From Schmidtea polychroa (lineage: Eukaryota): a stretch of 64,000 nucleotides of DNA. Positions within the stretch are counted from its first letter, which is position 1. Each line of letters begins with the position of its first letter. The notes under the pieces were generated by a model, which was not told the origin of the DNA, made no database searches, and saw only the letters and a program-made list of their open reading frames with translations. This document shows, piece after piece, positions 1,241-34,683 of the stretch. The DNA lies in NCBI GenBank assembly GCA_044892525.1, contig CM097885.1, positions 29,390,001 to 29,454,000 of the forward strand, read 5' to 3'. A program made the position numbers and the translations under genes.

Positions 1241-2239
1241 TAAAATTATTTTCTTCCATTTTTTAATAATTTTAAAATTATATTTTAACAATATGTTAAC
1301 AGTTATTTGATTCGGAACAAAAACCTATATAAGAATTTTGCATGTATTTTTCATTATGTGTTTTGTGTTGGTGTGTTCAGTTATTTTTTTCTCACCTTCA
1401 CAAAATCTATAATAAAGTTTCTAAATTTCGGAATGATAAATTTCAACACACAGGTAAGTTTGTGTGTTCCTATAATATATATTTATTGATTTTTTTTAGA
1501 TTATAGAAGTTATTAAATTTCGGAATTAGGTGTATACATTTAGGCTTTGTGATACCACCTGTAATAATTAATGGATGACCGCTTGGAGGCGAACATTTGC
1601 TCAGAGTGTCATTAAGACACAATAATTTCGCTCAGCTAATATTAATTAAATATACTTTAACTTGAGCTTCTTTTTTATCATAAGAATTTGTGATGTGTTT
1701 CATCTTATCATATGCAACAGATTACAATAATAGTAATAATCATTAAAAATAATAATAGTAGTAGGATTGGTCCCCGCCAGATCAGGTCCCCTCCAGATCA
1801 CATATACCCCCTCCCCCCCCCGGGAAAAAATTTTATTTTTTTTTTAGAACGATGCCTAATATTTTTAGAACTATTACGTAATTTTTTTTAAATTAAGTGA
1901 TCCAGCGGGGACCTACTTTTTTTTCTTCCCAAAAGTAATGTTCCCGCCAACAAATTTTATTAACCGATACCTCATCTTCAAGCTCAGTCCAAGACCTTTC
2001 GAATGAGCTATAGGTATCTTATATATCTTTAATAGTTTTAATGTTATTAACAATTGATGACCACCATCTTTTCAACGTTAAATTATTATTATTTTTCAAA
2101 ATATTATTAAGTGATCCAGCGGGGACCTACTTTTTTTCATCCCAAAATTTATTGTTCTCGCCAACATATTATATTGATCGATAGCTTATTTTAAAGCTCT
2201 GTGCAAGAACTTTCTAATGAGATATAGAATTTTATCATA

Positions 2240-2630
2240 CGATGACTCATCACATTTTTAGAACAAAGACAATGACTCATCACATTTTTAGAATGATGTC
2301 TAATATTTTAGAATGATGCCAAATATTTTTAGAACGATGTCTATTATTTTTAGAATGATGTCTAATATTTTAGAATGATGCCTAATATTTTTAGAATGAT
2401 TACGTCATAATTTTAGAACGATGTCTATTATTTTTAGAATGATGCCTAATATTTTTAGAATGATTACGTCATAATTTTAGAACGATGTCTATTATTTTTA
2501 GAATGATGCCTAATATTTTTAGAATGATTACGTCATACTTTTAGAACGATGTCTAATATTTTTAGAACGATGCCTATTATTTTTAGAATGATTACGTCAT
2601 ACTTTTAGAACGATGCCTAATATTTTTAGA
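2240..2630. repeat. ~21 bp tandem minisatellite in element A (mirror copy ~14735-15125)
   Basis: Units such as TTTTAGAATGATGCCTAATAT and TTTTAGAATGATTACGTCATA. Confidence 0.9.
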
Positions 2631-2747
2631 ATTAATAATTTTGTTTTAATTATCGATGATTATATAATTTTGTTTAAATCATTGATTATATAATTTTTTT
2701 GTTTTAATTATCGAATACGTAATAATATAATTTTGTTTAAATCGTTG

Positions 2748-2780
<33 letters not shown>

Positions 2781-2797
2781 ATTATAATTATTAATAT

Positions 2798-2900
2798 TAT
2801 ATACTCCTAGTCTATCCGACAAAATATTCTGTCCCCCTATGGGTACTGCTCACAAATGTACTACTCACATTCAACAAGTCACAAGGGTACTGCTCACACT
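2798..2900. repeat. Dispersed ~100 bp module shared by elements A and B (first of 13 copies)
   Basis: TATATACTC(CT/TG)AGTTTATCCGACAAAATATTCTGTCCCCCTATGGGTA followed by GGGTACTGGTC/GGGTACTACTCAC repeats. Forward copies near 2798, 3055, 4543, 6410, 9267, 22373, 24671; reverse copies ending near 8300, 11156, 13022, 14352, 14558, 28508. Confidence 0.9.
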
Positions 2901-2946
2901 CAATATGTCGTAAATTATTATTATTATTATTTCAAATACAAGTTCA

Positions 2947-3022
<76 letters not shown>

Positions 3023-3384
3023 TATTATTACGCGCACGGGGAATATTATTATCATATATACTCTTAATCTATCCGACAAAATATTCTATCCCTTTATGGG
3101 TATTGCTCATATGGGTTATGGTCAAAGGTGTACTACTCACATTCAACATGTCTCAAAGGGTATAATATAATTATTATTAAATTCTGACCAACTTAAATCA
3201 ATGAAGGGGTAGAACAAAAATATATTAAGTTGCGGTATTTTAAATTTAAAAATATTTTAAAAACTTATTTTGACACTAAAGTTTACTTAATTAACAAAGA
3301 CATAATTATTGCACATGCTTTGCATAAATATTATTATTTTTTAAATTTTCAATATTTTCTTTTAAAGTATTAACACGCGCGGGA

Positions 3385-3435
<51 letters not shown>

Positions 3436-3439
3436 GTTA

Positions 3440-3993
3440 ATGAAAAATCTAAAATATGGTTTACACACACAACCCCTCAACCATTATTATTATTATCAGT
3501 ATTAAAAACCTAAAATATTTTCTACACACACACACACACACAACCCATTAACCATTATTATTATCATTATCATTATTAGTGAAAACTTAAAATATTTTTT
3601 ACACACACACACAACCCATTAACCATTATTATTATTATCAATATTAAAAACCTAAAATATTTTTACACACACACAACCCATTAAACTTTATTATTATTAT
3701 TATTAGTGAAAAGCTAAAATATTTTTACACACACCCAACCCATTATCAATTATTATTGCAAATATTAGTCAAAAACCTAAAATATTATTTACACTCACAC
3801 AACCATTAACCATTATTATTATCATTATTAGTGAAAACCTAAAATATTTTCTACACACACACACACAACCCATTAACCATTATTATTATTGCAAATATTA
3901 GTCAAAAACATAAAAACACTCATAAACCATTATTATTATCAATATTCGTGAAAACCTCAAATATTTTTTACACGCATATACAACCCATTAAAC

Positions 3994-4055
<62 letters not shown>

Positions 4056-4170
4056 CAATATTAAAAACCTAAAATATTTTTACACACACACACAACCCAT
4101 TAACAATTATTTGTAACAATATTCGTGAAAACCTCAAATATTTTTTACACACATATACAATCCATTAAAC

Positions 4171-4223
<53 letters not shown>

Positions 4224-4420
4224 CAATATTAAAAACCTAAAATATTTTTACACACACACACACAACCCATTAACAATTATTTGTAACAATATTCGTGAAA
4301 ACCTCAAATATTTTTTACACACATATACAATCCATTAAACTTTATTATTATTATTATTATTATTATTATAATTATTATTATTATTAGTGAAAAAACCTTA
4401 AATAATTTTTACACACTAAG
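3440..4420. repeat. ~60 bp compound tandem array with (AC)n and (ATT)n cores (mirror copy ~13140-13960)
   Basis: Unit AAAACCTAAAATATTTTT(AC)nAACCCATTAACC(ATT)n. Confidence 0.9.
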
Positions 4421-7400
4421 TTATGGGGTAGAGTATTATTATGTTTGCAGTATTCTGTGTTTGCCTTTACAGGAAGTTGTCAATATGGAGCGATAATTTT
4501 ATACATACATTCTATATACACATACCTTGTTTAACATGGGTGTATATACTCCTAGTTTATCCGACAAAATATTCTGTCCCCCTAAGGGTATTGCTCACAA
4601 AGGTACTACTCACACTCAACATATCGCAAGGGTATATTAATTATGGTTAGTAAATAAAACTTATCACACACACTATTTAAACGATAAAAATCAAGACAAG
4701 AGAGGACAAGGCAAAGTTAATGCATTTAGTATTGCCAGGCCTAATGAGCAGTGACCAAATATCTGTGCCTGAAAGACACGGTGGATATTTGTTCGCGTCC
4801 ACAAGGGTCGTCTGTGCCTCCCCCAAGTGGGGTCAGAAGAACCTGGGCATTATAGCTTTCCGTACGGAACATTACGCCTAGCATGGGTAGTCAACTACCA
4901 GCACATTCGAAACGTATAATTTCAAAATACATGCGTCATTGGCACTATAACCAAATTAATTAATGTTTTCACTAACACAAATATATATTTACAGAGGCCT
5001 CCCACTAGTTGGATTACAACCGCCCACCACGACGATCAGCTTGTAAATATATATTAATTAAGGGATAAAGAGGACCCACCCAACCCTATTATATTTAATT
5101 TACAAATTTTTCTCGTTCTTCTGCTGGTATTCTATCTCAAAATTATCATCTCCATCGGGCCATTTGGAATACATCTTGCGAATTGGACATATTTCTTAGT
5201 TTCTGATGTGGCGTCAACTATCATTGCTAAAATTTATATTGATTTAAAAGCAATTAACTTACATTATCTAGCATTTTATCGTCATAGGCTTGATAAATTA
5301 GGCAACTGTTATTTGTGGTATACTTTTTCAATGTCATTTCCCACCATAAAACACAGATACCTAAATATAATATATATATTTTAAAGAATTAATTCATGTC
5401 TTACATTAATAATAATATTCTTCAGGTAGTACTTTACAATATCTAATTGCTAAAACATCGGTTTTTCCCATTTTTCTTGACAATCGTTGAAAGTTTACAT
5501 AATTTAAGTCTGATAATTCATGTTGAAGGACACCCACAATCAGCTAATTCATTTAAGAAATCCGGAACATAGCAATGTTTCACCATTTTGTCTGGTTCAT
5601 TTTTTTCTATAATTCATGTTTTAATAAGAAATTTCTAAATCCAGAACATAAGTCATTTAGTGTTTCACCATTTTATCTGGTTCATCTTCTTCATAATCAT
5701 ATAATTCATTTTCTTCATTACTAAGTAAAATAATTAAAATATTGTAGTAAATTCTTTATTTACTTACTTTATGGATACTAAAACGAAAGAAATAAAGTTA
5801 TATCAAAAGTATATTTAAATAATTTAAATTTAAATAATTTAATTTAGTTATTTAAAAATATTTAAACAATTTAGTTATTTAAGCATATTTAAACATTAAC
5901 ATTATTATATAGTATAATTTTATATAATATTATAATTTTATGTACACTTATATATCCTTCATTTAATTTTTTAAATTCAAAATTTATAATGAAGATTCTT
6001 TGAATTAAAAAATATTCTGTTAGTATTTCCAGGCAGTAAACAACGAATTCAATAATTAAAATCTTAATTTTCATGTTGTTAGGGTTGTGGCCAGAATTTA
6101 ATCGCCATCTAATCGTTTGTTCTCAATTTCGCTCATTTTTGTTCAAAACATTCAGGTGAGTTGTTATCTGGAAAGTTTCTTTGAGCTCAGTTTTGTTAAA
6201 ACACTCACGGTATTTTTGAGGGACGTGACACTGGGAATAAATTAACAATGGGTGGTCTTGCATACAGGTTGTTGGTTTGAACTGTTGATTTATTTTAGAA
6301 ATATGTATATTAAAAACATTTAAGGTATCATTCAGTAAAATAATATAGTATTTTTGAGTATTTTTAGTTGATTTATAAATAACAGTATTTTGATATATCA
6401 ATAAAGACCATATACTCCTAGTTTATCCGACAAAATATTCTGTCCCCCTATGGGTATTGCTAGCAAGGGTACTGGTCACATTCAACATGTCGCAATATTA
6501 ATCATTTAGAAATTCTTAGGTAATTTAGTGAGATGATCGTGAATATTTTAAATGTAACTTTACACTTATGTCGAGCGACTAATTTATTGGTTAACTTTGT
6601 AGTCATTTAAAGCAAAAATTAATTTATTCATCTAATGTTCGTTACAATAGATAATAACATGAGAAAAACATGGTCATTATTCATTGATAATTTTAAATTC
6701 TTTATCATTTGGAGTAAATTTGTTTGAGGCAAAAATATTTGAAGGAGTCATAATAGAAATATGGTTATCATTTAACCAAATAAGGTGCTTATTAGTTAAA
6801 AATATATATTTATATAGGGTTACAATTCTTTTCTAATTTAATTAGATGATCATTAGACGTAATATATCTTTGCGAGAAATTTAAGATGTTTGAGTAACCA
6901 AAACATTGATATTTTGGGTCATCAATTTATGAATAGTGCTTAATTTTCTCATTTTTAGTGATTTAAAATAATATTTAGCAAAGGTAATTTGGCAAAATAT
7001 CACTTATCCATCCGATAACAATATTCCTTCAATAGATTAACTGATATTCAACCGATTTAATTTCTAATTAAAATCATAAAATTCCTTCAATAAAGATCAA
7101 TTTTCTTTAGCCGTTGTCGATTTCCAACTTTTAAGTCAATATTTCTCAAGTTTTGTCACTGATGTCCCCACAATGAATAAAATAACTTCTTAAGTAAAAT
7201 AATTTAAAGCAATAACCTTTGATATCAATCCCAATTAATTCTAAAGATTTCAAATATTTCATTGTGAAAACCAAGTAAATTGATCATTAACCCTAAACGA
7301 CTTAATAAAACAGTGGATAATTAATATAAAACTGGTTCTAAAACATAAATCTAAATTACTGTGCAATAACATTCATCACAACCTAATAAACCTCTAAAAC

Positions 7401-10259
7401 GATATAATTTCACAGGAACTATTATTAATTCATAGCTAAATACTGACTATTTCCCTTTAAAATTTACCAATAAGAACATTGTCGATTTAAATAGAGATTT
7501 TAAACATTTCCACCAAATATTTCTATCATTTTAAACACCTTAAAAATCATATATTACCATCTTAACCAACCGACTTTAATATATCAGACCTTTAATATAT
7601 CAATTCTCTTAAAATCCATAGAAAATTCTTCAAAATATGAATTTTATTTATTTGTTACAGACATCCTTCCATTGAAATAATTTAGTATCTAAATTCATGT
7701 AGTAAGAGCCCATTAAAAAAATCAAAATTTACTAAAATCAATATTTTCTACAAATATTTCACCACATTTACCATCAAATACCTAACTAGAAATGAAATAT
7801 ATCGATTGATCATAATTCTTCATCGATTCAGCTAATTATATAGCAATTATAACGTGATATATCTTTCAAAATCACAAATTTCAGTATATTTTACAATAAT
7901 TTTTACAAAAATTAAATAATAATAACTTGATTATTGTAAAAACTCTAATTATTAACCTAACTGTCATTAAAAATATTATTATTTAAAAGTAAATTTAAAA
8001 ACAAGTCAATAAAATATAGCAAATTATCAAGAAATTAATTAAATTTGTCTTAGAATTAACACTAAAACGTTAAATTTCAAAATATTCTTTCAATTATTCA
8101 CAAAAAGGTTAGTAATAATGTTAGTAAAATCCCGCTAACTCTAAAAATTACCAACGAATTTAATGCTAAATAATAACCAAAAATTTGCCTAAATAAAACA
8201 CACCAATACCTTTACGACCAGTACCCTTACGAGCAGTACCAATTGTGAACAGTACCCATAGAGGGAGAAAATATCTTGTCGGATAAACTCAGAGTATATA
8301 TAATAAAACGAATTAACAATAACTCCATCAAATTGAATCAGTCAAATTAACACAAATTTTGATAAAAAATCTTATTCTAAAATGGTAAGAAGCGTAAAGA
8401 GATAAAATTAACAATATTATTCTCAGGTGGTAAGAATATTTTATTTTTGAGTCTGTTATCCCTCTATTATCATTGCTTACTTGATGTTTTCATAAATTTA
8501 AGTAAAGTTAATGCTGGGTATGTGTTCTGACACACTTTGTTTCCTTCTTATCTTTGAGAGATTATTTTGATTAAAAAGAGTAATGTATCTTAAATTATCT
8601 TTTAGAATAACTGTTTTTTGAAATATTTAATGTAAAATAGCAAATATCATAATTATTAATTCAATATTAAAGGAGTTAATCAAAATTTAAAATATAAAGT
8701 TATCATAATTGCTTAGTCAAATACCATTTGTTATCTATGTTTGTCATTTTTGGATTAAATACTTTATCAAAATAAATGTTTATCACATTATTAAAATATT
8801 TTAATTCGTTAGTCACTCATATATTAGAAATAATTTATAAATACTCATCACTTATAGCCCCCATTTTCCACTAATCCTCCCAACAACTATTTCTTTGAAC
8901 ATTGAATTAAATATTTTTTTTTTTATTAAAGTGATCATTTTTATAAATTTTTATGAATTTCATGAAATAATTTTAAATAAATGCAATTAATCTATTTCCA
9001 TCTTATCTATGACACTTCTCGGTATATTTACATTTACGTTACATTAATGAATAATTCAAACCCTTATTTTCACCTTTTGAATTTCATTATTAATTAATCA
9101 TAGAATAATGATGATTCTTACCACCTGAGAATAATATTGTTAATTTTATCTCTGTGTTATCTTTCGATTTTACGCTGCTTACCACTTTAGAATAAGATTT
9201 TTTATCAAAATTTGTGTTAATTTGACTGATTCAATTTGATGGAGTTATTGTTAATTCGTTTTATTATATATACTCTGAGTTTATCCGACAAGATATTTTC
9301 TCCCTCTATGGGTACTGTTCACAATTGGTACTGCTCGTAAGGGTACTGGTCGTAAAGGTATTGGTGTGTTTTATTTAGGCAAATTTTTGGTTATTATTTA
9401 GCATTAAATTCGTTGGTAATTTTTAGAGTTAGCGGGATTTTACTAACATTATTACTAACCTTTTTGTGAATAATTGAAAGAATATTTTGAAATTTAACGT
9501 TTTAGTGTTAATTCTAAGACAAATTTAATTAATTTCTTGATAATTTGCTATATTTTATTGACTTGTTTTTAAATTTACTTTTAAATAATAATATTTTTAA
9601 TGACAGTTAGGTTAATAATTAGAGTTTTTACAATAATCAAGTTATTATTATTTAATTTTTGTAAAAATTATTGTAAAATATACTGAAATTTGTGATTTTG
9701 AAAGATATATCACGTTATAATTGCTATATAATTAGCTGAATCGATGAAGAATTATGATCAATCGATATATTTCATTTCTAGTTAGGTATTTGATGGTAAA
9801 TGTGGTGAAATATTTGTAGAAAATATTGATTTTAGTAAATTTTGATTTTTTTAATGGGCTCTTACTACATGAATTTAGATACTAAATTATTTCAATGGAA
9901 GGATGTCTGTAACAATTAATAAAATTCATATTTTGAAGAATTTTCTATGGATTTTAAGAGAATTGATATATTAAAGGTCTGATATATTAAAGTCGGTTGG
10001 TTAAGATGGTAATATATGATTTTTAAGGTGTTTAAAATGATAGAAATATTTGGTGGAAATGTTTAAAATCTCTATTTAAATCGACAATGTTCTTATTGGT
10101 AAATTTTAAAGGGAAATAGTCAGTATTTAGCTATGAATTAATAATAGTTCCTGTGAAATTATATCGTTTTAGAGGTTTATTAGGTTGTGATGAATGTTAT
10201 TGCACAGTAATTTAGATTTATGTTTTAGAACCAGTTTTATATTAATTATCCACTGTTTT

Positions 10260-10560
10260 ATTAAGTCGTTTAGGGTTAATGATCAATTTACTTGGTTTTC
10301 ACAATGAAATATTTGAAATCTTTAGAATTAATTGGGATTGATATCAAAGGTTATTGCTTTAAATTATTTTACTTAAGAAGTTATTTTATTCATTGTGGGG
10401 ACATCAGTGACAAAACTTGAGAAATATTGACTTAAAAGTTGGAAATCGACAACGGCTAAAGAAAATTGATCTTTATTGAAGGAATTTTATGATTTTAATT
10501 AGAAATTAAATCGGTTGAATATCAGTTAATCTATTGAAGGAATATTGTTATCGGATGGAT
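10260..10560 (+). pseudogene. Decayed coding-like cargo, possibly leucine-rich repeat (related sequence at ~26690-27000 in element B)
   Basis: Fragments such as LKSLELIGIDIKGYCF, HCGDISDKT and LKKIDL, with multiple stops and frameshifts. Confidence 0.3.
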
Positions 10561-11788
10561 AAGTGATATTTTGCCAAATTACCTTTGCTAAATATTATTT
10601 TAAATCACTAAAAATGAGAAAATTAAGCACTATTCATAAATTGATGACCCAAAATATCAATGTTTTGGTTACTCAAACATCTTAAATTTCTCGCAAAGAT
10701 ATATTACGTCTAATGATCATCTAATTAAATTAGAAAAGAATTGTAACCCTATATAAATATATATTTTTAACTAATAAGCACCTTATTTGGTTAAATGATA
10801 ACCATATTTCTATTATGACTCCTTCAAATATTTTTGCCTCAAACAAATTTACTCCAAATGATAAAGAATTTAAAATTATCAATGAATAATGACCATGTTT
10901 TTCTCATATTATTATCTATTGTAACGAACATTAGATGAATAAATTAATTTTTGCTTTAAATGACTACAAAGTTAACCAATAAATTAGTCGCTCGACATAA
11001 GTGTAAAGTTACATTTAAAATATTCACGATCATCTCACTAAATTACCTAAGAATTTCTAAATGATTAATATTGCGACATGTTGAATGTGACCAGTACCCT
11101 TGCTAGCAATACCCATAGGGGGACAGAATATTTTGTCGGATAAACTAGGAGTATATGGTCTTTATTGATATATCAAAATACTGTTATTTATAAATCAACT
11201 AAAAATACTCAAAAATACTATATTATTTTACTGAATGATACCTTAAATGTTTTTAATATACATATTTCTAAAATAAATCAACAGTTCAAACCAACAACCT
11301 GTATGCAAGACCACCCATTGTTAATTTATTCCCAGTGTCACGTCCCTCAAAAATACCGTGAGTGTTTTAACAAAACTGAGCTCAAAGAAACTTTCCAGAT
11401 AACAACTCACCTGAATGTTTTGAACAAAAATGAGCGAAATTGAGAACAAACGATTAGATGGCGATTAAATTCTGGCCACAACCCTAACAACATGAAAATT
11501 AAGATTTTAATTATTGAATTCGTTGTTTACTGCCTGGAAATACTAACAGAATATTTTTTAATTCAAAGAATCTTCATTATAAATTTTGAATTTAAAAAAT
11601 TAAATGAAGGATATATAAGTGTACATAAAATTATAATATTATATAAAATTATACTATATAATAATGTTAATGTTTAAATATGCTTAAATAACTAAATTGT
11701 TTAAATATTTTTAAATAACTAAATTAAATTATTTAAATTTAAATTATTTAAATATACTTTTGATATAACTTTATTTCTTTCGTTTTAG

Positions 11789-12440
11789 TATCCATAAAGT
11801 AAGTAAATAAAGAATTTACTACAATATTTTAATTATTTTACTTAGTAATGAAGAAAATGAATTATATGATTATGAAGAAGATGAACCAGATAAAATGGTG
11901 AAACACTAAATGACTTATGTTCTGGATTTAGAAATTTCTTATTAAAACATGAATTATAGAAAAAAATGAACCAGACAAAATGGTGAAACATTGCTATGTT
12001 CCGGATTTCTTAAATGAATTAGCTGATTGTGGGTGTCCTTCAACATGAATTATCAGACTTAAATTATGTAAACTTTCAACGATTGTCAAGAAAAATGGGA
12101 AAAACCGATGTTTTAGCAATTAGATATTGTAAAGTACTACCTGAAGAATATTATTATTAATGTAAGACATGAATTAATTCTTTAAAATATATATATTATA
12201 TTTAGGTATCTGTGTTTTATGGTGGGAAATGACATTGAAAAAGTATACCACAAATAACAGTTGCCTAATTTATCAAGCCTATGACGATAAAATGCTAGAT
12301 AATGTAAGTTAATTGCTTTTAAATCAATATAAATTTTAGCAATGATAGTTGACGCCACATCAGAAACTAAGAAATATGTCCAATTCGCAAGATGTATTCC
12401 AAATGGCCCGATGGAGATGATAATTTTGAGATAGAATACC
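11789..12440 (+). pseudogene. Decayed intron-containing cargo gene inside element A (mirror copy ~5130-5780, minus strand)
   Basis: GTAAG..TAG introns at 11799-11845, 12162-12205 and 12304-12339; exon-like peptides EPDKMVKHCYVPDFLNELADCGCP and ICVLWWEMTLKKYTTNNSCLIYQAYDDKMLDN, broken by stops. Confidence 0.55.
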
Positions 12441-13342
12441 AGCAGAAGAGCGAGAAAAATTTGTAAATTAAATATAATAGGGTTGGGTGGGTCCTCTTTA
12501 TCCCTTAATTAATATATATTTACAAGCTGATCGTCGTGGTGGGCGGTTGTAATCCAACTAGTGGGAGGCCTCTGTAAATATATATTTGTGTTAGTGAAAA
12601 CATTAATTAATTTGGTTATAGTGCCAATGACGCATGTATTTTGAAATTATACGTTTCGAATGTGCTGGTAGTTGACTACCCATGCTAGGCGTAATGTTCC
12701 GTACGGAAAGCTATAATGCCCAGGTTCTTCTGACCCCACTTGGGGGAGGCACAGACGACCCTTGTGGACGCGAACAAATATCCACCGTGTCTTTCAGGCA
12801 CAGATATTTGGTCACTGCTCATTAGGCCTGGCAATACTAAATGCATTAACTTTGCCTTGTCCTCTCTTGTCTTGATTTTTATCGTTTAAATAGTGTGTGT
12901 GATAAGTTTTATTTACTAACCATAATTAATATACCCTTGCGATATGTTGAGTGTGAGTAGTACCTTTGTGAGCAATACCCTTAGGGGGACAGAATATTTT
13001 GTCGGATAAACTAGGAGTATATACACCCATGTTAAACAAGGTATGTGTATATAGAATGTATGTATAAAATTATCGCTCCATATTGACAACTTCCTGTAAA
13101 GGCAAACACAGAATACTGCAAACATAATAATACTCTACCCCATAACTTAGTGTGTAAAAATTATTTAAGGTTTTTTCACTAATAATAATAATAATTATAA
13201 TAATAATAATAATAATAATAATAAAGTTTAATGGATTGTATATGTGTGTAAAAAATATTTGAGGTTTTCACGAATATTGTTACAAATAATTGTTAATGGG
13301 TTGTGTGTGTGTGTGTAAAAATATTTTAGGTTTTTAATATTG

Positions 13343-13398
<56 letters not shown>

Positions 13399-13960
13399 GT
13401 TTAATGGGTTGTATATGCGTGTAAAAAATATTTGAGGTTTTCACGAATATTGATAATAATAATGGTTTATGAGTGTTTTTATGTTTTTGACTAATATTTG
13501 CAATAATAATAATGGTTAATGGGTTGTGTGTGTGTGTGTGTGTAGAAAATATTTTAGGTTTTCACTAATAATGATAATAATAATGGTTAATGGTTGTGTG
13601 AGTGTAAATAATATTTTAGGTTTTTGACTAATATTTGCAATAATAATTGATAATGGGTTGGGTGTGTGTAAAAATATTTTAGCTTTTCACTAATAATAAT
13701 AATAATAAAGTTTAATGGGTTGTGTGTGTGTAAAAATATTTTAGGTTTTTAATATTGATAATAATAATAATGGTTAATGGGTTGTGTGTGTGTGTAAAAA
13801 ATATTTTAAGTTTTCACTAATAATGATAATGATAATAATAATGGTTAATGGGTTGTGTGTGTGTGTGTGTGTAGAAAATATTTTAGGTTTTTAATACTGA
13901 TAATAATAATAATGGTTGAGGGGTTGTGTGTGTAAACCATATTTTAGATTTTTCATTAAC

Positions 13961-14023
<63 letters not shown>

Positions 14024-14576
14024 TCCCGCGCGTGTTAATACTTTAAAAGAAAATATTGAAAATTTAAAAAATAATAATATTTATGCAAAGCATGTGCAAT
14101 AATTATGTCTTTGTTAATTAAGTAAACTTTAGTGTCAAAATAAGTTTTTAAAATATTTTTAAATTTAAAATACCGCAACTTAATATATTTTTGTTCTACC
14201 CCTTCATTGATTTAAGTTGGTCAGAATTTAATAATAATTATATTATACCCTTTGAGACATGTTGAATGTGAGTAGTACACCTTTGACCATAACCCATATG
14301 AGCAATACCCATAAAGGGATAGAATATTTTGTCGGATAGATTAAGAGTATATATGATAATAATATTCCCCGTGCGCGTAATAATAAATAATAATAATAAT
14401 AATAATACTTTGAACTTGTATTTGAAATAATAATAATAATAATTTACGACATATTGAGTGTGAGCAGTACCCTTGTGACTTGTTGAATGTGAGTAGTACA
14501 TTTGTGAGCAGTACCCATAGGGGGACAGAATATTTTGTCGGATAGACTAGGAGTATATAATATTAATAATTATAAT

Positions 14577-14615
<39 letters not shown>

Positions 14616-16939
14616 CAACGATTTAAACAAAATTATATTATTACGTATTCGATAATTAAAACAAAAAAATTATATAATCAATGATTTAAACAAAATTATA
14701 TAATCATCGATAATTAAAACAAAATTATTAATTCTAAAAATATTAGGCATCGTTCTAAAAGTATGACGTAATCATTCTAAAAATAATAGGCATCGTTCTA
14801 AAAATATTAGGCATCGTTCTAAAAGTATGACGTAATCATTCTAAAAATATTAGGCATCATTCTAAAAATAATAGACATCGTTCTAAAATTATGACGTAAT
14901 CATTCTAAAAATATTAGGCATCATTCTAAAAATAATAGACATCGTTCTAAAATTATGACGTAATCATTCTAAAAATATTAGGCATCATTCTAAAATATTA
15001 GACATCATTCTAAAAATAATAGACATCGTTCTAAAAATATTTGGCATCATTCTAAAATATTAGACATCATTCTAAAAATGTGATGAGTCATTGTCTTTGT
15101 TCTAAAAATGTGATGAGTCATCGTATGATAAAAATCTATATCTCATTAGAAAGTTCTTGCACAGAGCTTTAAAATAAGCTATCGATCAATATAATATGTT
15201 GGCGGGAACAATAAATTTTGGGATGAAAAAAAGTAGGTCCCCGCTGGATCACTTAATAATATTTTGAAAAATAATAATAATTTAACGTTGAAAAGATGGT
15301 GGTCATCAATTGTTAATAACATTAAAACTATTAAAGATATATAAGATACCTATAGCTCATTCGAAAGGTCTTGGACTGAGCTTGAAGATGAGGTATCGGT
15401 TAATAAAATTTGTTGGCGGGAACATTACTTTTGGGAAGAAAAAAAGTAGGTCCCCGCTGGATCACTTAATTTAAAAAAAATTACGTAATAGTTCTAAAAA
15501 TATTAGGCATCGTTCTAAAAATATTAGGCATTGATTACGTAATAGTTCTAAAAATATTAGGCATCGTTCTAAAAAAAAATAAAATTTTTTCCCGGGGGGG
15601 GAGGGGGTATATGTGATCTGGAGGGGACCTGATCTGGCGGGGACCAATCCTACTACTAATAATCATTTCTAAAAATATTAATTATTACAAATAAAATAAA
15701 AATCAATATTAATAAAAATAATCATAATGAGATAATTATAAATAGGTAAAATCATTTGATTTTTTGTTTCCTTTTCTTATGATAATATTTTCAAATTTCA
15801 TTGAAATTCATTATGAATATAGATGAACTTTTACCACTATAAATTAAAATTTTTGCACAGCCTTTTAATAATTAAGATTGATAAAATTAATTAATAATAA
15901 TTAAAAATATTTTTTTCAAAACTTTTTTCAAATTTCACCGCTGATTTCTTTTCAATTGAAATTTTATTTATTAAAAATCTTGACTATGAATAAGTAAATA
16001 ATTCGATATTTTTTTATGTATATTTACTAATTCATAGTCAAGCTTCTTAATAAATATAATTAATAAATTAATAATAAGATAATTAAAAATAATTGATAAA
16101 AAGAAATAAAATTCGTATTAATAAAATTAATAAAATAATATTGATAATAATTAATAGTTTAAAAATTGTTTTATAAATAAAAATGTTTCATTATATATTA
16201 TCAATGTAAATGGAAAAAGGAAATTATAACAGTATGAAGAAATCAATTTGGCAGAAAAAAATGATATAAAAATTTCAAAGAAAAATAAAATAAAATTTCG
16301 AATTTAGTGAAAGATTTAACGAAATATTTAAATAATTTTTAAAATATAAAAAAATATAAATAATTTAACTTATCTAAAATTCATTTTTTAACTTATTAGA
16401 TGGCATTTGATCAATATTTTCTTAAAGAACAACACAAAATTTTGACAGACATTTTTAATTGGTTATTTTATTTAAGTACATTCGTCATATAATAATTAAA
16501 AAATGAAATAGTTCATGCAGACTCTAATGGATATATTTTAATATTTAATTATTAAAAGCTATAAAATGTCCACCGTCTAACAGTAAAAATATGAAATATC
16601 TAACAAATTCAAATTTGGCTGAGATGTTTTTACAGATGTAGATTATTAATAAATCAACAGTCTAAACAATTTCAAATTATTTGATATTTATATTACTTTA
16701 TTTCTTATTAATGATTATTTTATAATAATTATGGAGAAAATTATATTATACGTAATTTTATATAAATTTAAATTCATAACAATTTTTATAAATTATATTA
16801 TTTGCACAAATATTGATAAATGACAAAGTTGACATTTGTTTTATTATATTAAAATACGTTAACTTAGAATGGCGTTTTTACATTTATTATTAATATATAA
16901 TTTTAGATTTAATAAAAGGAAAGATTGAATAATTTATTT

Positions 16940-18074: not shown

Positions 18075-19079
18075 TTATTATTATTTTTATTGAAAGAAAA
18101 CAAAATATAATAATGAATTTCTGATAAATAAAACCAAATATTCAAAGAATATTCAAACATGTATATTATATTTATTGTCTCGCCTTGCAAATAAGCATAA
18201 CATCTTGCACTACCATCCAAAATATGTATCTGAGAAAATACTTTTAATATCACTATCTCAGCAACAACGAAAGTAAGTACGTATATTTATTACACATTGA
18301 AACTACAATTTCCGATATTAGAGAGAGAGAGAGATGACCAGTTAACCTTTTGTTTCCCTTTCACAACAAGAAAATGGCAATAGAACAATGCCAAAATATT
18401 ATTATTGGTTTTACATTTAATAATTCATATTTTTATAATTTCCTTGTGAGAGAATATTTCACTAGGTTTCGTGTAACGCAAGTTGAAGAAAGGGAACTAA
18501 GTCTATATACATGAAAATTTGTTTAACCAGTATTTCCTTAGAGTATATTTATATATAATTCAGTTAGATTAAAACAATAACTAGTAAAGAATGATCTGTA
18601 TAGTGTAATCAAACGAAGAAATAGTTATAAATAGAATAAAATACTTGAAAATTGCAGTAAATTTTAGAAAATACAATTATGCATTACATTAAATGCTAAG
18701 ATGAAACAGCAGATTTTTCTGCTAAATTAGAATTTTCTTGAAAATGTTTTCTGTTTTTACATAATTGATTTATTTAAAATTCAATAATCACAAAAGAAAT
18801 AATTTAGAAAACTGTATGAAAGGCAACATTTATGTATTAAAAGAAAATAATTAATAAGAATAAAATAGTAAAAAAATAAAACTTCCTTTCAGAGCAATTA
18901 TTCTTGTTTAATGATGCCCAAATAGGTAGCATATGAATGTTAAAGCTTTAGATAAGATAAATAGAGGTTATTTGATAAACATCTTTTTGAGAGTCAAACC
19001 TTAAAGAAATTGCATTTTGTCAGAGTAGGTAGTTAGGGGCTCCCTGCAGCAATGACCCCCCCGGGGGGGGGGGGGGTTC

Positions 19080-20380
19080 TGCTGCAACTCTTTTTTTGCT
19101 GCAACTTTTTTTCTGCTGCAACTTTTGATTACGCAATTGCTGCAACTCACATTTTTTGCGTTCAGGGATTTTTGGTCCAAATTTTTATTTTTATTAGACT
19201 ATAGTCTCGATGGTCCTGGGATTTTCAATACAAAAAGGTGGTCTACACTAAAAAAAGCATGAAATTTTCAGACTATAGTGAGGGGGTCTCGATGGTCCTG
19301 GGATTTTCAATACAAAATTTTTTTTTTCAATACAAAAATCCGACTATCAATAAAAAAGCATGGATTTTTCGAATTAAATTAAGGTGGGTCTCCTTGGTCC
19401 TGAGAATTTCAATAGAAAAAGGTAGTCTACACTAAAAAAGCATGGTAATTTAAGGTCTCAGGATATTTTCAATACAAAAAGGTGGTCTCAATAAAAAAGC
19501 ATGGTAATTTAAGGTCTCAGGATATTTTCAATACAAAAAAGGCGGTCTACACTAAAAAAGCGTGGTAAATCTTTAAAATAAAGTAAATAATGGTCCAAAT
19601 TTTTCAATTAAAGCAAATTATGGGTCTAAAAATTGAATTACAGTAAATTATGGGCTAAGATTTTTGAATGATGATGTTCCAAATTTTAAAATTAAAGTAA
19701 ATTATGGTCTAAATAAGTAAATTAACGTTCATATTTTTGAATTAAAGTAATTATGGGCTCAGATATTTGAATTAAAGTAATAACTGGGCTCAAGTGAGTT
19801 AATTAAGGTTCAAATTTTTAAATTAAAGTAAATAATGGTTCAAATTTTTAATTAAAGTAAATCAAGGTCCAAAATTTTAAATTAAAGTAATGAATGGGCT
19901 CAAATAACTTAATTAAGGTTCTAAAAAATTAAATTAAAGTAAATAATGGTCCAAATTTTAAAATTAAGTAATCAAAGTAAAAAATTAAAATAAAAGTTAA
20001 ATAAGTAAATTAAAGTAATAATTTTTTAAATAAGTAAATTAAAGTAAATTAAAGTAAGATTTTAAAATTTATTAACAAAAAGTTGAAATAATAGGTGTTT
20101 GAGAATTGAAATTTTTTAATGAAAATTTTTATGAAATATTTTTCAATGGTAATTTTTAATGGAAATTTTTATGAAATATTTTTCAATGGTAATTTTTAAT
20201 GGTAATTTTTATGAAATATTTTTCAATGGTAATTTTTAATGGAAATTTTTATGGAATAATTTTTTAAGTTAATTTTTAATGGAAATTCTTATGAAATATT
20301 TTTCAATGATAATTTTACATGGAAATTTTTAAGATAATTTTTAATGAAAATTTTTATGAAATATTTTTCAAAGACAAATT
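19080..20380. repeat. Stacked subterminal tandem arrays of element B
   Basis: TGCTGCAACT x4; TTCAATACAAAAAGGTGGTCT units; AATTAAAGTAAAT units; ~40 bp AATTTTTATGAAATATTTTTCAATGG units. Confidence 0.85.
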
Positions 20381-20400
20381 TTAATAATAATTCAACAACA

Positions 20401-21828
20401 AACCAAAAACTTAGTACCAACAACCAGTAACTTACGAATATGTACTTACAACCAGATACCTACAACTAGTTACTAACAACCAGTTACCTGATACCAAGTA
20501 CCTACAACTAGATACTAACAACCAAAAACATGCAACCAACTAGCTACAACCTACCAAGTACTTACAACCCACAACAACCAGCTAACAACTAGCTACCACC
20601 TACTAAGTACTAACAACCAGTTACCTGATACCAAGTAAATACAACCACCTAACAAGTACTAACAACCAAAAACAAGCAACCAACTAGGTACCAGATACCA
20701 ACTACTAAGTACCTACAACCAACTAGGTACTAGATACCAAGTACTTACAACCGAAAACAACCAGGTACTAAGCATTATCAACCAAGTACCTACAACCAAC
20801 CACAACCAAGTACTAACAACTGAAAAAAAACCAACAACTAGCTACAACCTACCAATTACTTACAACCCACAACAACCAGCTAACAACTAACTACAACCTA
20901 CCAAGTACATACAACCAACATCAACCAGGTACTAAGCATTAATTACCACCTACCAAGTAGATATAACCAACATCCACCAGGTACTAAGCATTAATTACCA
21001 ACTACTCACAACCAACATCAACCAGATATCTACAACTAGATACTAACAACCAGTTACCAAGTACTTACAACCACCTACCCATTAACTAGCTACTAAGTAC
21101 TAACAACTAGCTACCACTTACTAAGTACTAACAACCAACAACAACCAAGTACTAAGCATTATCAACCAACTACTGAGTACCTACAACCAACTAGCTACCA
21201 CCTACCAACTACTCACAACCGTCAACAACCAGGTACTAAGCATTATGAACCAACTACTAACAACCAAGTACAAGATACCTAGTACATACAACCACCTACC
21301 AAGTACTTATAACCAGATGACCACATGAAATTATTGGTTAAATAGGTAAATTAATGTTTTATTTTAAAATTAACTAATCAATGGTCTAAAATATGAAAGT
21401 TAAAGTCAATTTAAGATGAAAGTTTTCTAAGATTTTCAATGTTAATTTTAGATGCAAATCTTCGTCAATTAATCAATGACCACATGAAATTATTAGTTAA
21501 ATATGAAAATAAGGGTTATAATTAGTTGTTTAGTAAATTATGGTGTAAAATTAAGTAATAAAGGATAAATAGGTAAATTAAGGATAAGTAAATTAAAGTT
21601 AAAAATTTTAAATAAGTAAATTAAGGTTCAAAATTTTAAATTAAAGTAAACAATGGTTTAAATTTTAAATTAAAGCTAAATGAGTAAATTAAAGTAATAA
21701 TTTTTAAATAAGTAATGTAATAAGTAAATTAAACTAAGATTTTTAAATTTATTATCAAAAGATTGAATAACCACCAACTTTTTTGAGAAATGTAATTTAT
21801 AATGAAAATTTAAATGGAAATTTTAATG

Positions 21829-21911
<83 letters not shown>

Positions 21912-24465
21912 TTATAATAATAATTAAACAGTTACCAACAATCGGTTACTAAATATTTTTAACTAGGTGCTAACAAATACTTTCAACATGATACCACGTA
22001 CTAACTAACTCTCAAACAATCACATACTTACAACTAACTACTTACAATCAACTATATATTCTTTATTGTATTTTATGAATTGTATTTTTTTAAATTAATA
22101 TTTTTTATACAGCTTCTATAATAATTTTAATTACAATCAGTAGAAAAACCTTTTCAAAATGTCTAAATTTAACAAAAATGTTGATTTTCATCAAAAAACC
22201 ACAACTCAATCACTTTAAAACACCACGTGAAATTCAAAATAATTTAAATTACAATGAAAGACTAATGAATTCTAATTTGCAAAACATTTTTCTTTTAATT
22301 GATTACTACTGACTTATTATTGCAAAGTAAAAATCACATTCAATAAATACTTATTGTTGATCAGTTTTATTATATATACTCTGAGTTTATCCGACAGGAT
22401 GTTTTGACCCCCCTAAGGGTACAGGTCGTAAGGGTACTGGTCGTAAGGGTATTAGTCGTAAGAGTACTGGTCGTAAGGATATTGCTAACTGTCAACCCCC
22501 ACCTACCCATTAACTAGCTACTATCAATCAGCTAACAACTAAATACCAAGTACTCACAACCAACATCAACCAGGTACTGAGCATTATCAACCTACAACTA
22601 TATAACAACAATCAGTAAACAACACTGTACCAACTACCAAATATAAGATACCAACAAATAGATACCAAGTACCAACAATCAACTAACAACACATAAAAAT
22701 AATAGCAATTAAATACAAAATATTCTTCATCACATACACTATCTTCTTATCAAAATCTAAAAAGTCAACCAACTACTTACAACCAACAACTATGTACTAA
22801 CAAATTGATCTTTGAAAGAAAAATACTCATCACTTGAAAAATTAGATGAAAAATTAATTGAATTCAAGGCATCAATAACTAGGTAAAAATTGATGAAATT
22901 ATTGTAAAAATTTAAATTATTCAAAATAAATATCATAAAAATTTAATTAATAGACAAGAAAGAATTCTAATCATTAATCATCCAGTAAATTTAAAAAAAA
23001 ATACTGATCATTCACGTTGAATCAACTAAGATAATAAATTAATAAAATTTGAAATAAAATCTAGTAGATAATTGATTTAGATTGAATAAATTAATTGAAA
23101 TAAAATTAATTTTAATTATTTTTGTAAAAGTAATACATGTACTCAAATTGATTAACTGATTTCTCAATATATTCAAAAAATCAGTATGAATTCATTACAA
23201 TCATCAATGTCGTCAATCTACAATAAAAATAATTATCATTAAATTCCAAGAGAGACTAGAAAACTAATGATAGCATCTAACAAACCAGTAAATTCATTTA
23301 AATGACAATAATTGGTATATTCAAGCGAATTCTCTAATAAATCATCTAAAAAGAATCATTTTCCCTGAAATATCTATATCTTTTAAGATTAGTATCTTAT
23401 CGATAAGTACTTGTGAAAGATCATATATTCACCTCAAACTAACAAGATTCCTTAAAATCTCTTAAATGACTATATTTCTACCCTTAATCCATATTATTAC
23501 AAATAATTCACTAAAATCATCTAAAAAGCATCAAATTTCCCTGAAATAACTCTATCTTTAAAGATTAGTATTTTATCGATAAATATCCTTAAAAGGTTAT
23601 ATATTTACCTCAGACTAATAAGATTGCTTAAAATCCCCTTTAAATGTCTATAATTCTAACTTTAATTCCTATTATCACGAATATTTCCCTATAAAACATG
23701 TAAAATAATTTGGTCATTAACCCTAAATAATTGATAAAATCTAATGATAAAACTGGTTATAATTAAATTTTTGTTAATCACTGTACTCGAAATTTAAAAT
23801 AAATATAACTGACTAGGTCCCATTGAAAGATTAAATTTATCCATTCAATAAAATATATTTCTTCAAATGATCATTTTACCGATATTCCACCGATTTAATT
23901 ACTAATTAAAATCAATCGATAGATTTCTTTCAATAAAGATCAATTTTATTTAGTTGTTGTCGATGTTTTAAGTCCATATTTCTCAACTTTTGTCATTCTC
24001 CGTCTAAATAAAGATAAAAATAAATTAAAGTTGATATCAATCCCAATTATCTGTAAAGTTTTCATTGTCAAAACCAAGTAAATCGATCATTATCCCTACT
24101 TAATAGAACATTGTTCTAAAACATAAATCTAAATTAATATACAATGAATTAATCACAACCTAATAAAACGATATAATTTCACATTATTATTGATACATAA
24201 CTGACTAATTGACATTTCCCTTAAAACAATGATATTTTACCAACATCACCATTAAAAAAATCATATATTCCCATCTTAACCCATCTCTCATTAAATTTAA
24301 CCGACTATATTCCCATCTTAACCCATCCTTCATTAAAGTCAATCGACTATATCTCCCTTAAAAGATCATATTTTTCCATCTTAATCGATCTCTCATTAAA
24401 TCTCACCGACAATATCCCATCTTAACCGATCTCTCAGCAAATATTTCTACCCTTTTAAACATCTA
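20401..24465 (+). repeat. Left inverted arm of element B
   Basis: ~21310-24465 is a near-exact reverse complement of 26415-29580. Confidence 0.92.
20420..21315. repeat. C/A-rich complex satellite (G/T-rich mirror at 29580-30690)
   Basis: Shuffled 7-20 bp words such as ACAACC, CAAGTAC, ACTAGCT and AGGTACTAAGCATT. Confidence 0.9.
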
Positions 24466-24879
24466 AAAATTAATTATTTTCACCCATTTGAATTTATCAT
24501 CGAGTAATGAATAATTTCCTCACTTTAATGAAGATTCTTACCACCTTCATTGTTAATTTTATCAAAGTTTAAAGAATATTTCTCTTTTCATTTTACATTG
24601 CTTACCACATAAGATTTTTTATCGAAATTTATGATAATTTTACTGATTCAATGAAGAATGAGTTAATTAATATATACTCTGAGTTTATCCGACAAAATAT
24701 TCTGTCCCCCTATGGGTATTGCTCACAAGGGTACTACTCACATTCAACATGTCGCAAGGGTATTAGTCGTAAAGGTATTTAATGCTTTTATTTGAATGAT
24801 TATTTAGACAAATTTGATGTTTAAGGCATTCATTGATAATTTTTAGAGTTGATGGTTTTAGTAAATATTCAAGTAAATT

Positions 24880-25180
24880 TCTATCATTTTTGTGAATTTT
24901 TATCGTTTTTTGTGGATTTCCATCATTTTCATGAATTTCCGTAATTTTTGTGAATATCTGTAATTTTTGTGGATATCTATCATTTTTGCGGATTTCTATT
25001 ATTTTCCGTAATTTTTGTGAATATCTGTAATTTTTGTGGATATCTATCATTTTCGTGAATTTCCTATTATTTTTGCGAATTGCTATAATTTTTATGAATT
25101 TTTATCGTTTTTTGTGAATTTCGATCATTTTCATGAATTTTTATCATTTTTGTGGATTTCTATTATTTTTGTGGATTTCA
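24880..25180. repeat. ~21 bp tandem array in the spacer of element B
   Basis: TTTTTGTG(A/G)ATTTCTATCAT-like units; these explain ORF 24763-25050. Confidence 0.85.
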
Positions 25181-25855
25181 TATTTATTGAATGAATATTA
25201 AATAATTTAAAGTTAGTTCTAAGATAAATTTAATTAATTTCTTGATAATTGGATGTATTTTTAATTTTTAATGAGGTTAATAATTAGAGTTTGTACAATA
25301 ATCAAGTGGTAGGATAAATTTTTATGAGGATATTGAATAATTTTCTAAGAATTTCATGTTGACTGATTTAAAGTTTTAATGGTGATAAATTTCTTGATAA
25401 TTAGTTGTATTTTATTGAATAGTTTTTAAATAAAAATTAATTTCATTGACAATTAGGTTAATAATTAAGTGATTTTTGATGATAACTTTGTAATGTATTT
25501 GACTAAATAATTTTTCAATAATTTTCTAAGAATATTTACACATTGATGCACTTTAAAAAACATAAGCTAAGAAACCAGTTAACTTTATCAAGGACTTTAA
25601 ATTTACGTGATAATTATTGTAGGATATACAGAAATTTAGTTTGCTGTTATTGCTTGAAAATGATTGGTTGAATAGCTGAAGAATTATGATCAAACAATAT
25701 ATAGCATCTCCAGTATTTGATGGTAAATATTTGTAGAAAATTTAGTGAATTTTGATCTTTTAGTGGGCTCTTATTATTTGTCTGGTTCCTATAACAATTA
25801 ATTAAAAGTCATATTTTTGAAGTTCTCTGAGGATTTTAAGAGGATTGATATATAT

Positions 25856-26354: not shown

Positions 26355-26414
26355 ATATATATTAAAGGGCTCAAGTGGGTGGAATCTTTAGGGAAAATAA
26401 GGGATATAATCGGA

Positions 26415-28968: not shown

Positions 28969-29057
<89 letters not shown>

Positions 29058-30640: not shown

Positions 30641-30679
30641 ATCAGGTTGTTAGTCACTAGATGTAGGTATCTGGTTGTA

Positions 30680-31975: not shown

Positions 31976-31976
<1 letters not shown>

Positions 31977-33337: not shown

Positions 33338-33376
33338 TTTGGATTTTTTGTCATTTTTTAAATTTTTATTATAAAA

Positions 33377-34654: not shown

Positions 34655-34683
34655 TATAATCCCTGATATTTTAACATTTTAAA

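What the first reader, a model, noticed from the sequence alone, without database searches (positions are those of the whole stretch)
1757..15657. 13.9 kb fold-back element with Polinton ends but no Polinton genes
Seen: AGTAGT..ACTACT termini and a 6 bp AATAAT duplication, the same end signature as the Polinton at 31976. About 95% of the element is two 6.6 kb inverted arms around a 676 bp spacer, holding satellites and decayed cargo. Known: Polintons have AG..CT ends, 6 bp TSDs, TIRs usually about 1 kb or less and lengths around 15-20 kb. Inference: a non-autonomous satellite or defective-genome class mobilised in trans by Polinton integrase and PolB. Its length is close to that of the neighbouring Polinton (14.5 kb), which could reflect capsid packaging. 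Element B indicates a family.
Basis: partly seen in the sequence, partly recalled or inferred. Interest (0 to 1): 0.8.

Follow-up and report, generated by a model that had tools for sequence, protein, structure and literature searches.

The report
Gene-less snap-back satellite of Polintons
This 13.9-kb mirror-image DNA element has no genes, belongs to a family with hundreds of copies in the genome, carries the same ends and insertion footprint as a gene-bearing virus-like Polinton transposon elsewhere in that genome, and is likely a heritable 'snap-back' defective genome that is copied and inserted with that Polinton's enzymes.

Summary
Confirmed: window 1757-15657 is two inverted arms (6681/6544 bp, 8 mismatches) around a 676-bp spacer, with an AATAAT duplication. 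It is no artefact: 27 of 28 paired copies of its terminus have exact 6-bp duplications (0 of 756 cross-pairs), and a spacer 24-mer has 554 exact hits. The partner is not the neighbouring Polinton (only 8 terminal bases shared) but a 16-17-kb coding Polinton family with the same ~1.3-kb ends. Arms differ by 0-4/kb within 12 of 15 copies against medians of 20-38/kb between copies, so arms are re-copied from each other. All 6 sampled close inverted PolB pairs are fold-back palindromes of the helper's own end, so such snap-back genomes form and spread. Copies recombine, helper/satellite hybrids exist, and a related core carries a second Polinton family's ends (element B). Best reading: a non-autonomous, defective-interfering-like snap-back satellite; replication and packaging are inferred, and a capsid size limit is not supported. 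Not found in nine literature searches; this scan noted the same kind of element before, three times in this genome and twice in others.

The parts
1751..1756 (.). left target-site duplication AATAAT
   Evidence: family test
1757..8437 (+). left arm (6681 bp), starts with the (AGT)2 Polinton end motif
1757..3107 (+). outer part of the arm shared with the terminal inverted repeat of the coding helper Polinton family (56 of the first 60 bases identical)
2284..2632 (+). 21/64-bp minisatellite within the helper-shared part
2799..2900 (+). module 1 (about 100 bp, TATATACTC..TATCCGACA..GGGTACT repeats); the helper has one such module at the inner end of each terminal repeat; limits approximate
3056..3165 (+). 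module 2 (limits approximate)
3386..4386 (+). ATT/CA-rich satellite block (62-170-bp units); holds the largest arm-to-arm indel (174 bp)
4544..4640 (+). module 3 (limits approximate)
5103..5755 (-). broken ORF-like cargo with two short GT..AG intron-like gaps (mirror of 11811-12463); stops and frameshifts in every copy whose translation was displayed; no credible Pfam family or homologue
6410..6495 (+). module 4 (limits approximate)
7004..8402 (+). inner core shared at 68-79% (BLAST blocks) with the element-B family, which has other Polinton ends
8200..8300 (-). module 5, inverted, about 140 bp from the spacer (limits approximate)
8438..9113 (.). 676-bp unpaired spacer (the loop of the predicted fold-back); one of two spacer alleles about 23% apart
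9114..15657 (-). right arm (6544 bp), reverse complement of the left arm, with five mirrored modules
15658..15663 (.). right target-site duplication AATAAT
19024..30690 (+). element B: related gene-less fold-back element with the ends of a second Polinton family; right terminus absent from the window; right limit approximate

Best explanation
The element is a gene-less palindromic member of a large mobile family that shares its ends and 6-bp insertion footprint with a coding Polinton family in the same genome, and it likely propagates as a snap-back defective genome (satellite) that borrows that Polinton's protein-primed polymerase and integrase. Shown: identical ends, exact 6-bp duplications, hundreds of copies, arms re-copied from each other within a copy, fold-back palindromes of the helper's own PolB end that turn at short natural palindromes or microhomologies and in one case sit at two loci, recombination among copies, and helper/satellite hybrids. 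Inferred: a single strand freed during helper replication folds into a 6.6-kb stem with a 0.7-kb loop; helper PolB initiates at the duplex end and copies through, so one arm templates the other; the duplex product is inserted by the helper's retroviral-type integrase. Inferred: the ten ~100-bp modules per element (two in the helper) are amplified cis-acting sites that would help the satellite compete for helper proteins. Some arm-to-arm copying also happens in the chromosome after insertion.
For: Ends and footprint: 27 of 28 paired termini with exact 6-bp duplications, 0 of 756 cross-pairs. One copy sits inside another family member at a TAGAGT site that is single in A at about 4418-4423. Helper: 4 of the 28 are 16.2-17.2-kb Polintons with A32-like ATPase, rve integrase, adenain-like protease, TBP-like gene, PolB and capsid-like ORFs, 97-99.4% identical to one another in the genes compared, PolB frame open in 3 of 4. 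Copy numbers: 195 exact terminus hits, 554 exact spacer hits, 258 exact helper-PolB hits, controls 0. 10 of 10 sampled spacer hits lie in A-like sequence, 8 with 4.7-8.7 kb paired arms. Homogenisation: 0-4.2 differences/kb between arms in 12 of 15 copies against medians of 20-38/kb between copies; copy-private alleles are in both arms 59 times and in one arm 22 times (12 copies). Fold-back in action: 6 of 6 close inverted PolB pairs among the first 100 listed hits are snap-backs of the helper's PolB end, 5 with exact duplications, at least 4 different turning points, two loci sharing one identical centre. Recombination: four-gamete incompatibility rises from 0.26 (<50 bp) to 0.65 (>2 kb), 0 of 1000 permutations as low. 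Two hybrids at different loci share one helper-gene-block/spacer junction. Modules: 2 per coding helper, 7-12 per long palindrome.
Against: No extrachromosomal molecule, particle or mobilisation was observed; the enzymatic steps rest on shared ends and on the recalled Kapitonov-Jurka model (paper not held). Arm-to-arm copying can also be chromosomal: in copy F1 the copied tract runs 1069 bp into right-flank host DNA, and other loci have inverted flanks. 3 of 15 copies have unlike arms (12, 19, 41 per kb). The helper's own two terminal repeats differ by 5-19 sites in about 460, no better homogenised than many satellites'. The inner 5 kb of the arm and the spacer match neither helper family apart from the module, so their origin is unexplained. 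About half of the listed termini had no exact partner within 30 kb and were not classified.
Confidence: 0.8

Rival explanations
1. Giant MITE/foldback-type passenger: the element is moved by the Polinton integrase alone, and its arms are expanded and homogenised in the chromosome by gene conversion or fold-back break repair, with no need for helper PolB replication.
For: F1 shows an inverted copy of the right terminus plus 1069 bp of right-flank DNA inside the left end, joined at a 2-bp microhomology. Inverted flanks occur at further loci (E25 5.2 kb, B1, B5, C1:187722). Galileo terminal repeats also lengthen and form chimeras in non-autonomous copies (PMC3573991, passages).
Against: One-arm changes persist unconverted: a hAT fragment in one arm of E3, a 1.4-kb deletion in one arm of E1, and 4%-divergent arms in F2. 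Lineage-specific rearrangements are symmetric. PolB-end snap-backs with one identical centre sit at two loci. Distance-dependent recombination among copies fits a co-replicating pool, though ectopic conversion could give it too.
Confidence: 0.14
2. Packaged satellite with a capsid-set length: total length is held near helper length because spread goes through helper capsids, and the satellite arrays act as stuffer.
For: 12 of 13 standard-spacer copies are 12.8-15.0 kb against helpers of 16.2-17.2 kb. B-family palindromes are 15.0-15.7 kb against a 15.5-kb B-family coding copy. The deletion junction of one short one-arm copy is single in the genome. The helper encodes capsid-like proteins, protease and packaging ATPase.
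Against: PolB-end snap-backs of 10.6-12.5 kb have exact duplications and one 11-kb form is at two loci; a 27.6-kb nested palindrome has an exact duplication. Common descent explains similar lengths. Only one short-form junction was counted. No particle data.
Confidence: 0.25
3. Assembly or fold-back read artefact.
For: Long near-perfect inverted repeats are hard to assemble, and polishing could make arms look more alike; no single read spanning the locus was seen.
Against: Exact, different 6-bp duplications at 27 of 28 loci; a conserved 668-701-bp centre in 13 copies; arm-specific SNPs and indels in A. Contigs of four public runs from four studies cover the spacer, and one bridges the left arm-spacer junction with 35 letters on the arm side (family-level evidence, and X1 may be the source sample).
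Confidence: 0.02
4. The neighbouring Polinton at 31976-46506 is the mobilising partner.
For: It shares the first 8 bases (AGTAGTAG), a 6-bp AATAAT context and a similar length.
Against: No further similarity to A. Another Polinton family matches 56 of A's first 60 bases and about 1.3 kb of terminal repeat. The (AGT)2 motif is the commonest Maverick end motif (PMC8097293, passages).
Confidence: 0.03

Closest known systems
Polinton/Maverick elements (PMC8097293, PMC4028283, PMC5718144; passages read)
   Same: (AGT)2//(ACT)2 ends, 6-bp duplications, terminal inverted repeats, length near the 15-20 kb range; the outer 1.3 kb is the terminal repeat of a coding Polinton family in this genome.
   Different: No pPolB, integrase, ATPase, protease or capsid gene; repeats of 6.6 kb against 46-1447 bp in intact vertebrate Mavericks and about 2 kb in a butterfly polinton.
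Non-autonomous and PolB-less Polinton derivatives (bioRxiv 10.1101/2025.02.07.637071, passages; Repbase Polinton-N entries recalled, not checked)
   Same: Polinton ends on an element that lacks replication genes and stays mobile; foreign cargo.
   Different: The published cases seen keep structural genes and ordinary architecture; here 95% of the element is one self-complementary stem with a conserved loop, and it has no genes.
Snap-back/copy-back defective viral genomes (PMC13506859, PMC10924063 passages; PMC8235507 search listing only; adenovirus inverted-repeat-derived gene-less genomes recalled)
   Same: Near full-length reverse complementarity, both ends from one end of the helper, no coding capacity, helper dependence; the PolB-end snap-backs found here are the direct equivalent.
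   Different: Known ones are transient products of infection; these are integrated, inherited, amplified to hundreds of copies, and carry a core not derived from the present helper.
Drosophila Foldback-like elements, Galileo (PMC3573991, passages)
   Same: [quoted passage not shown]
   Different: P-superfamily transposase, 7-bp duplications and repeats up to about 1.26 kb; here a virus-like helper, 6-bp duplications and arms five times longer.

Membership tests
Polinton/Maverick (autonomous) | pPolB and rve integrase genes, plus ATPase, protease, capsid genes | tested here: not met
   0 tblastn hits of 10 helper proteins in A; no ORF of 120 aa or more
Polinton/Maverick (autonomous) | (AG)3 or (AGT)2 end motif on terminal inverted repeats | tested here: met
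   AGTAGT...ACTACT; motif per PMC8097293
Polinton/Maverick (autonomous) | 6-bp target-site duplication | tested here: met
   27 of 28 paired copies, 0 of 756 cross-pairs
Non-autonomous Polinton | Ends shared with a coding Polinton in the same genome | tested here: met
   4 full coding copies among 28; 56 of 60 terminal bases and about 1.3 kb shared
Non-autonomous Polinton | Amplified as a unit without own enzymes | tested here: met
   554 exact spacer hits; 13 copies with the same centre at different sites with different duplications
Non-autonomous Polinton | Mobilisation in trans by helper proteins | not testable with these tools
   inferred from shared ends only
Snap-back defective viral genome | Near full-length self-complementarity, both ends from one helper end, no coding capacity | tested here: met
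   95% of A in arms; PolB-end snap-backs in 6 of 6 sampled
Snap-back defective viral genome | Sequence derived wholly from the helper genome | tested here: not met
   inner 5 kb and spacer match neither helper family apart from the module
Snap-back defective viral genome | Replication by helper polymerase, packaging, interference | not testable with these tools
   no extrachromosomal or particle data
Foldback/Galileo (P superfamily) | 7-bp duplication and P-type transposase partner | tested here: not met
   duplications are 6 bp; the partner with the same ends is a Polinton

The most novel reading that the evidence does not exclude
A long-lived, gene-less satellite lineage of Polinton viruses: snap-back defective genomes that became heritable, amplified the helper's cis-acting module five-fold per arm, outnumber the helper, and switch helper by swapping ends. 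The same core with first-family modules sits behind the unrelated ends of a second Polinton family whose silent sites are saturated against the first. The genome would then hold a fossil record of Polinton strand-displacement intermediates and of defective-interfering dynamics.
Probability: 0.45. Interest if true: 0.85.

Novelty: new variant of a known kind. Interest (0 to 1): 0.7.

Why it matters
How Polintons replicate is still a model. Integrated snap-backs of the helper's PolB end, arms re-templated within each copy, a variable number of terminal AGT units and distance-dependent recombination are genomic traces of a single-stranded fold-back intermediate, and they make that model testable by sequencing free DNA. 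The gene-less family is abundant (554 exact spacer hits; on the order of 1% of the 781-Mb assembly if most are near full length, an estimate), escapes protein-based Polinton searches, can duplicate flanking host DNA in inverted orientation, and is a predicted source of long hairpin DNA or RNA.

Tried and rejected
Exact 18-mer of A's own terminus found only A; a degenerate form was needed. One helper-gene pattern was uninformative and was replaced. Cargo identity: 8 stop-free pieces of A gave no Pfam family above cut-off (one weak, sub-threshold hydrophobic hit); one 45-aa piece found no longer homologue (weak evidence); module-masked six-frame tblastn against the coding Polintons held hit only loci that contain family arms. 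Rfam 0, tRNA 0, module pattern in viral contigs 0. Runs: no RNA holder listed, so nothing is concluded on expression; small-share runs were not used. The locus-specific flank junction and the empty site could not be checked on reads and stay open. Three papers were not held. Look-alike search by sequence in earlier findings was blank. Rejected: the neighbour as helper; artefact; the helper/satellite hybrid as ancestor of the family (its junction cuts the spacer in the middle); the standard spacer as essential (two derived centres of about 95 and 282 bp each occur at two loci). Mismatches of E22 and F1 at reference positions 6506-6546 cluster in the module and may be mis-mapped paralogues.
Full report
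OBSERVATION. Self-BLAST of the window and a global arm-to-arm alignment confirm the element at 1757-15657: arms of 6681 and 6544 bp, 8 mismatches in 6453 aligned columns, 10 gaps (mostly in tandem arrays), a 676-bp spacer, AGTAGT..ACTACT ends and AATAAT on both sides. It has no ORF of 120 aa or more and no hit to 10 Polinton proteins. The window lies on contig C1 of a 781-Mb, AT-rich assembly; earlier notes call the host an animal, which I did not test.

A REAL FAMILY WITH A 6-BP FOOTPRINT. The pattern AGTAGTAGGATKKGTCCC has 105+90 exact hits, control 0 (only the first 100 are listed). I took every facing pair within 30 kb in that list (24, A included) and four more pairs; about half of the listed termini had no exact partner and were not classified. 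27 of the 28 have an exact 6-bp duplication, against 0 of 756 cross-pairings. One duplicate row (a tandem repeat of E3's left end) was dropped; one copy needed its end moved by one extra ACT unit; three of the 27 (A, E16, F4) lie in simple repeats and carry little weight; the miss (E25) has inverted flanks. E3 sits inside another family member at a TAGAGT site that is single in A, a paralogous empty site. A 24-mer from the spacer has 554 exact hits. Of the first 10 such hits not near a listed terminus, all 10 lie in A-like sequence, 8 have 4.7-8.7 kb of paired arm, and several end in terminus variants that my 18-mer missed. Contigs of four public runs from four studies cover the spacer (30, 30, 27 and 18 of 30 bins); one bridges the left arm-spacer junction by 35 letters, another passes the right junction by 30, one short of the tool's threshold. 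This is family-level evidence, and the best holder may be the source sample.

THE PARTNER IS NOT THE NEIGHBOUR. Four of the 28 are 16.2-17.2-kb coding Polintons: A32-like ATPase, rve integrase with chromodomain, adenain-like protease and TBP-like protein by Pfam (ATPase, protease and TBP above cut-off, rve just below), plus a 1388-aa PolB-like ORF and capsid-like ORFs. The PolB and capsid labels rest on 26-28% similarity to the window Polinton's Pfam-typed PolB and on gene order and recall; Pfam gave no such family for them. They share 56 of A's first 60 bases and about 1.3 kb of terminal repeat, are 97-99.4% identical to one another in the genes compared, and PolB is free of stops in 3 of 4. 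A PolB 22-mer has 258 exact hits. The Polinton at 31976-46506 shares only AGTAGTAG with A. Of the other 24, 20 have no helper gene: 13 have a 668-701-bp centre, one more has the spacer and a nested unrelated Polinton, two have new centres of about 95 and 282 bp, four are one-arm deletion forms. The remaining four keep some helper genes.

ARMS ARE RE-COPIED WITHIN EACH COPY. On 3783 non-repeat core positions, 12 of 15 copies have 0-4.2 differences per kb between their arms, while medians to other copies are 20-38 per kb; three (E3, E4, F2) have unlike arms of 12-41 per kb. Alleles private to one copy occur in both arms 59 times and in one arm 22 times (12 copies). Both arms descend from one ancestral fold-back, so without copying they would be at least as diverged as copies are. 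One-arm changes persist (hAT fragment in one arm of E3; deletion in one arm of E1), whereas lineage-specific rearrangements are symmetric; this points to copying at mobilisation. Against a single mechanism: in F1 an inverted copy of the right end plus 1069 bp of host flank lies inside the left end, and E25, B1, B5 and C1:187722 have inverted flanks, so copying also overruns ends in place. The helper's own terminal repeats differ at 5-19 of about 460 sites.

FOLD-BACK OF THE HELPER ITSELF. Among the first 100 listed PolB hits six minus/plus pairs lie within 5.3 kb. All six are palindromes of the helper's PolB end, 8.5-12.5 kb, five with exact 6-bp duplications (one after allowing an extra AGT unit; one right end not found), none with A's core. 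There are at least four turning points: a 4-bp TTAA overlap, a natural 12-bp palindrome upstream of PolB (two loci), one with filler bases, one with a 3.2-kb loop. Two loci on different contigs share one identical 93-bp centre, so a snap-back has moved as a unit. This is the architecture of snap-back defective genomes as defined in PMC13506859 (passages) and listed for AAV in PMC10924063 (passages).

A RECOMBINING POOL AND A SECOND HELPER. Four-gamete incompatibility among 157 informative sites in 14 arms rises from 0.26 to 0.65 with distance (0 of 1000 permutations as low at short range). Two spacer alleles 23% apart do not follow arm type. Two hybrids with different duplications share one junction between the helper's gene block and the middle of the spacer. 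Element B (from 19024) ends in AGTAGGTAG, as do gene-less palindromes (B2, B4; exact duplications, B4 centre 695 bp) and a coding Polinton (B3) whose proteins are 57-85% identical to the first helper's and whose four-fold sites are 32-44% identical, that is saturated. The B-type palindromes carry B3-like ends but share core blocks of 68-79% with A and carry modules about 90% like A's, while the two B-type coding copies checked have no module. This suggests an end swap between helper families. Caveats: only two such coding copies were checked, one B-ended element (B5) has a module inside its terminal repeat, and BLAST blocks are selected for high identity.

THE MODULE AND THE CARGO. A ~100-bp module occurs once at the inner end of each helper terminal repeat, ten times in A and 7-12 times in the long palindromes; a degenerate core motif has 15,616 hits genome-wide (I did not check what share lies in these elements). 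Its function is unknown; an amplified cis-acting site is an inference from its position. The 0.65-kb ORF-like remnant with two intron-like gaps is broken in every copy whose translation was displayed (output partly cut) and has no credible family or homologue.

MECHANISM. Shown: shared ends, footprint, abundance, within-copy arm identity, helper snap-backs, recombination. Inferred from the recalled Kapitonov-Jurka model (paper not held) and recalled adenovirus panhandle repair: a freed single strand folds on its arms, helper PolB primes at the duplex end, the product is inserted by helper integrase. The extra AGT unit at one end of two elements fits slide-back priming (recalled). Packaging is open: 12 of 13 standard copies are 12.8-15.0 kb against 16.2-17.2 kb helpers, but 10.6-12.5-kb snap-backs and a 27.6-kb nested palindrome also carry exact duplications.

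KNOWN VERSUS NEW. It works like a snap-back defective genome and files as a non-autonomous Polinton; it is not an autonomous Polinton, and its core is not helper-derived. Intact vertebrate Mavericks have terminal repeats of 46-1447 bp (PMC8097293, passages); a butterfly polinton has about 2 kb, and PolB-less cargo-bearing polintons stay mobile (bioRxiv 10.1101/2025.02.07.637071, passages); Galileo reaches about 1.26 kb (PMC3573991, passages). Also read as passages: PMC4028283, PMC5718144, PMC6431247, PMC11414722, PMC3185507. Nine full-text searches listed no paper on giant fold-back or snap-back Polintons. The library lacks most subscription papers and Repbase, and no supplements were read, so an existing repeat-library entry is not excluded. 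This scan has noted the same kind of element three times in this genome and twice in other genomes; those notes are unchecked and not independent support.

VERDICT. Real, abundant, and best read as a heritable snap-back satellite of a Polinton family; a new variant of a known kind. Interest 0.7.

Noticed in passing
window 31976-46506: Coding Polinton of a different family inserted in an (AAT)n run; capsid (PF21738), integrase preceded by a phospholipase A2-like domain (PF08398), PolB (PF03175). A second, about 93% identical, broken copy lies inverted at 55771-64000.
   Followed up: partly
L043:682-1158 (G000:C1 near 3179900): The helper Polinton encodes a short TBP-like protein (PF00352, E 5e-15), head to head with the packaging ATPase; noted earlier by this scan.
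   Followed up: partly
L043:2381-3508: The helper integrase frame contains a short in-frame ATT-rich stretch that may be an intron.
   Followed up: no
L139/L140 and L143/L144 (G000:C1 near 249.43 and 260.97 Mb): 12-kb palindromes whose two arms each span the helper's PolB region, without integrase or capsid genes, turning at a natural 12-bp palindrome.
   Followed up: partly
L002/L006 (G000:C3:86275258-86288368): 1069 bp of right-flank host DNA is copied in inverted orientation into the element's left end; other loci have inverted flanks up to 5.2 kb, so these elements appear to seed inverted duplications.
   Followed up: partly
L149/L150 (G000:C3:57433335-57460942): 27.6-kb nested palindrome with a third Polinton-type terminus (AGTAGATGG...) and an exact TAAAAT duplication; a B-type element forms its centre.
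   Followed up: partly
window 47543-47778: 236-bp near-perfect palindrome (98%) with no spacer, possibly a MITE.
   Followed up: no
window 1-344 and 1202-1539: Direct repeat pair, 78% identical, left of the element.
   Followed up: no
window 50519-50952: ATT and AAT microsatellites facing each other as an imperfect inverted repeat.
   Followed up: no
G000:C2 near 29.96-30.02 Mb and G000:C3 near 116.57-116.61 Mb: Termini recur at regular spacing of about 19-23 kb, suggesting tandem duplication of element plus flank.
   Followed up: no
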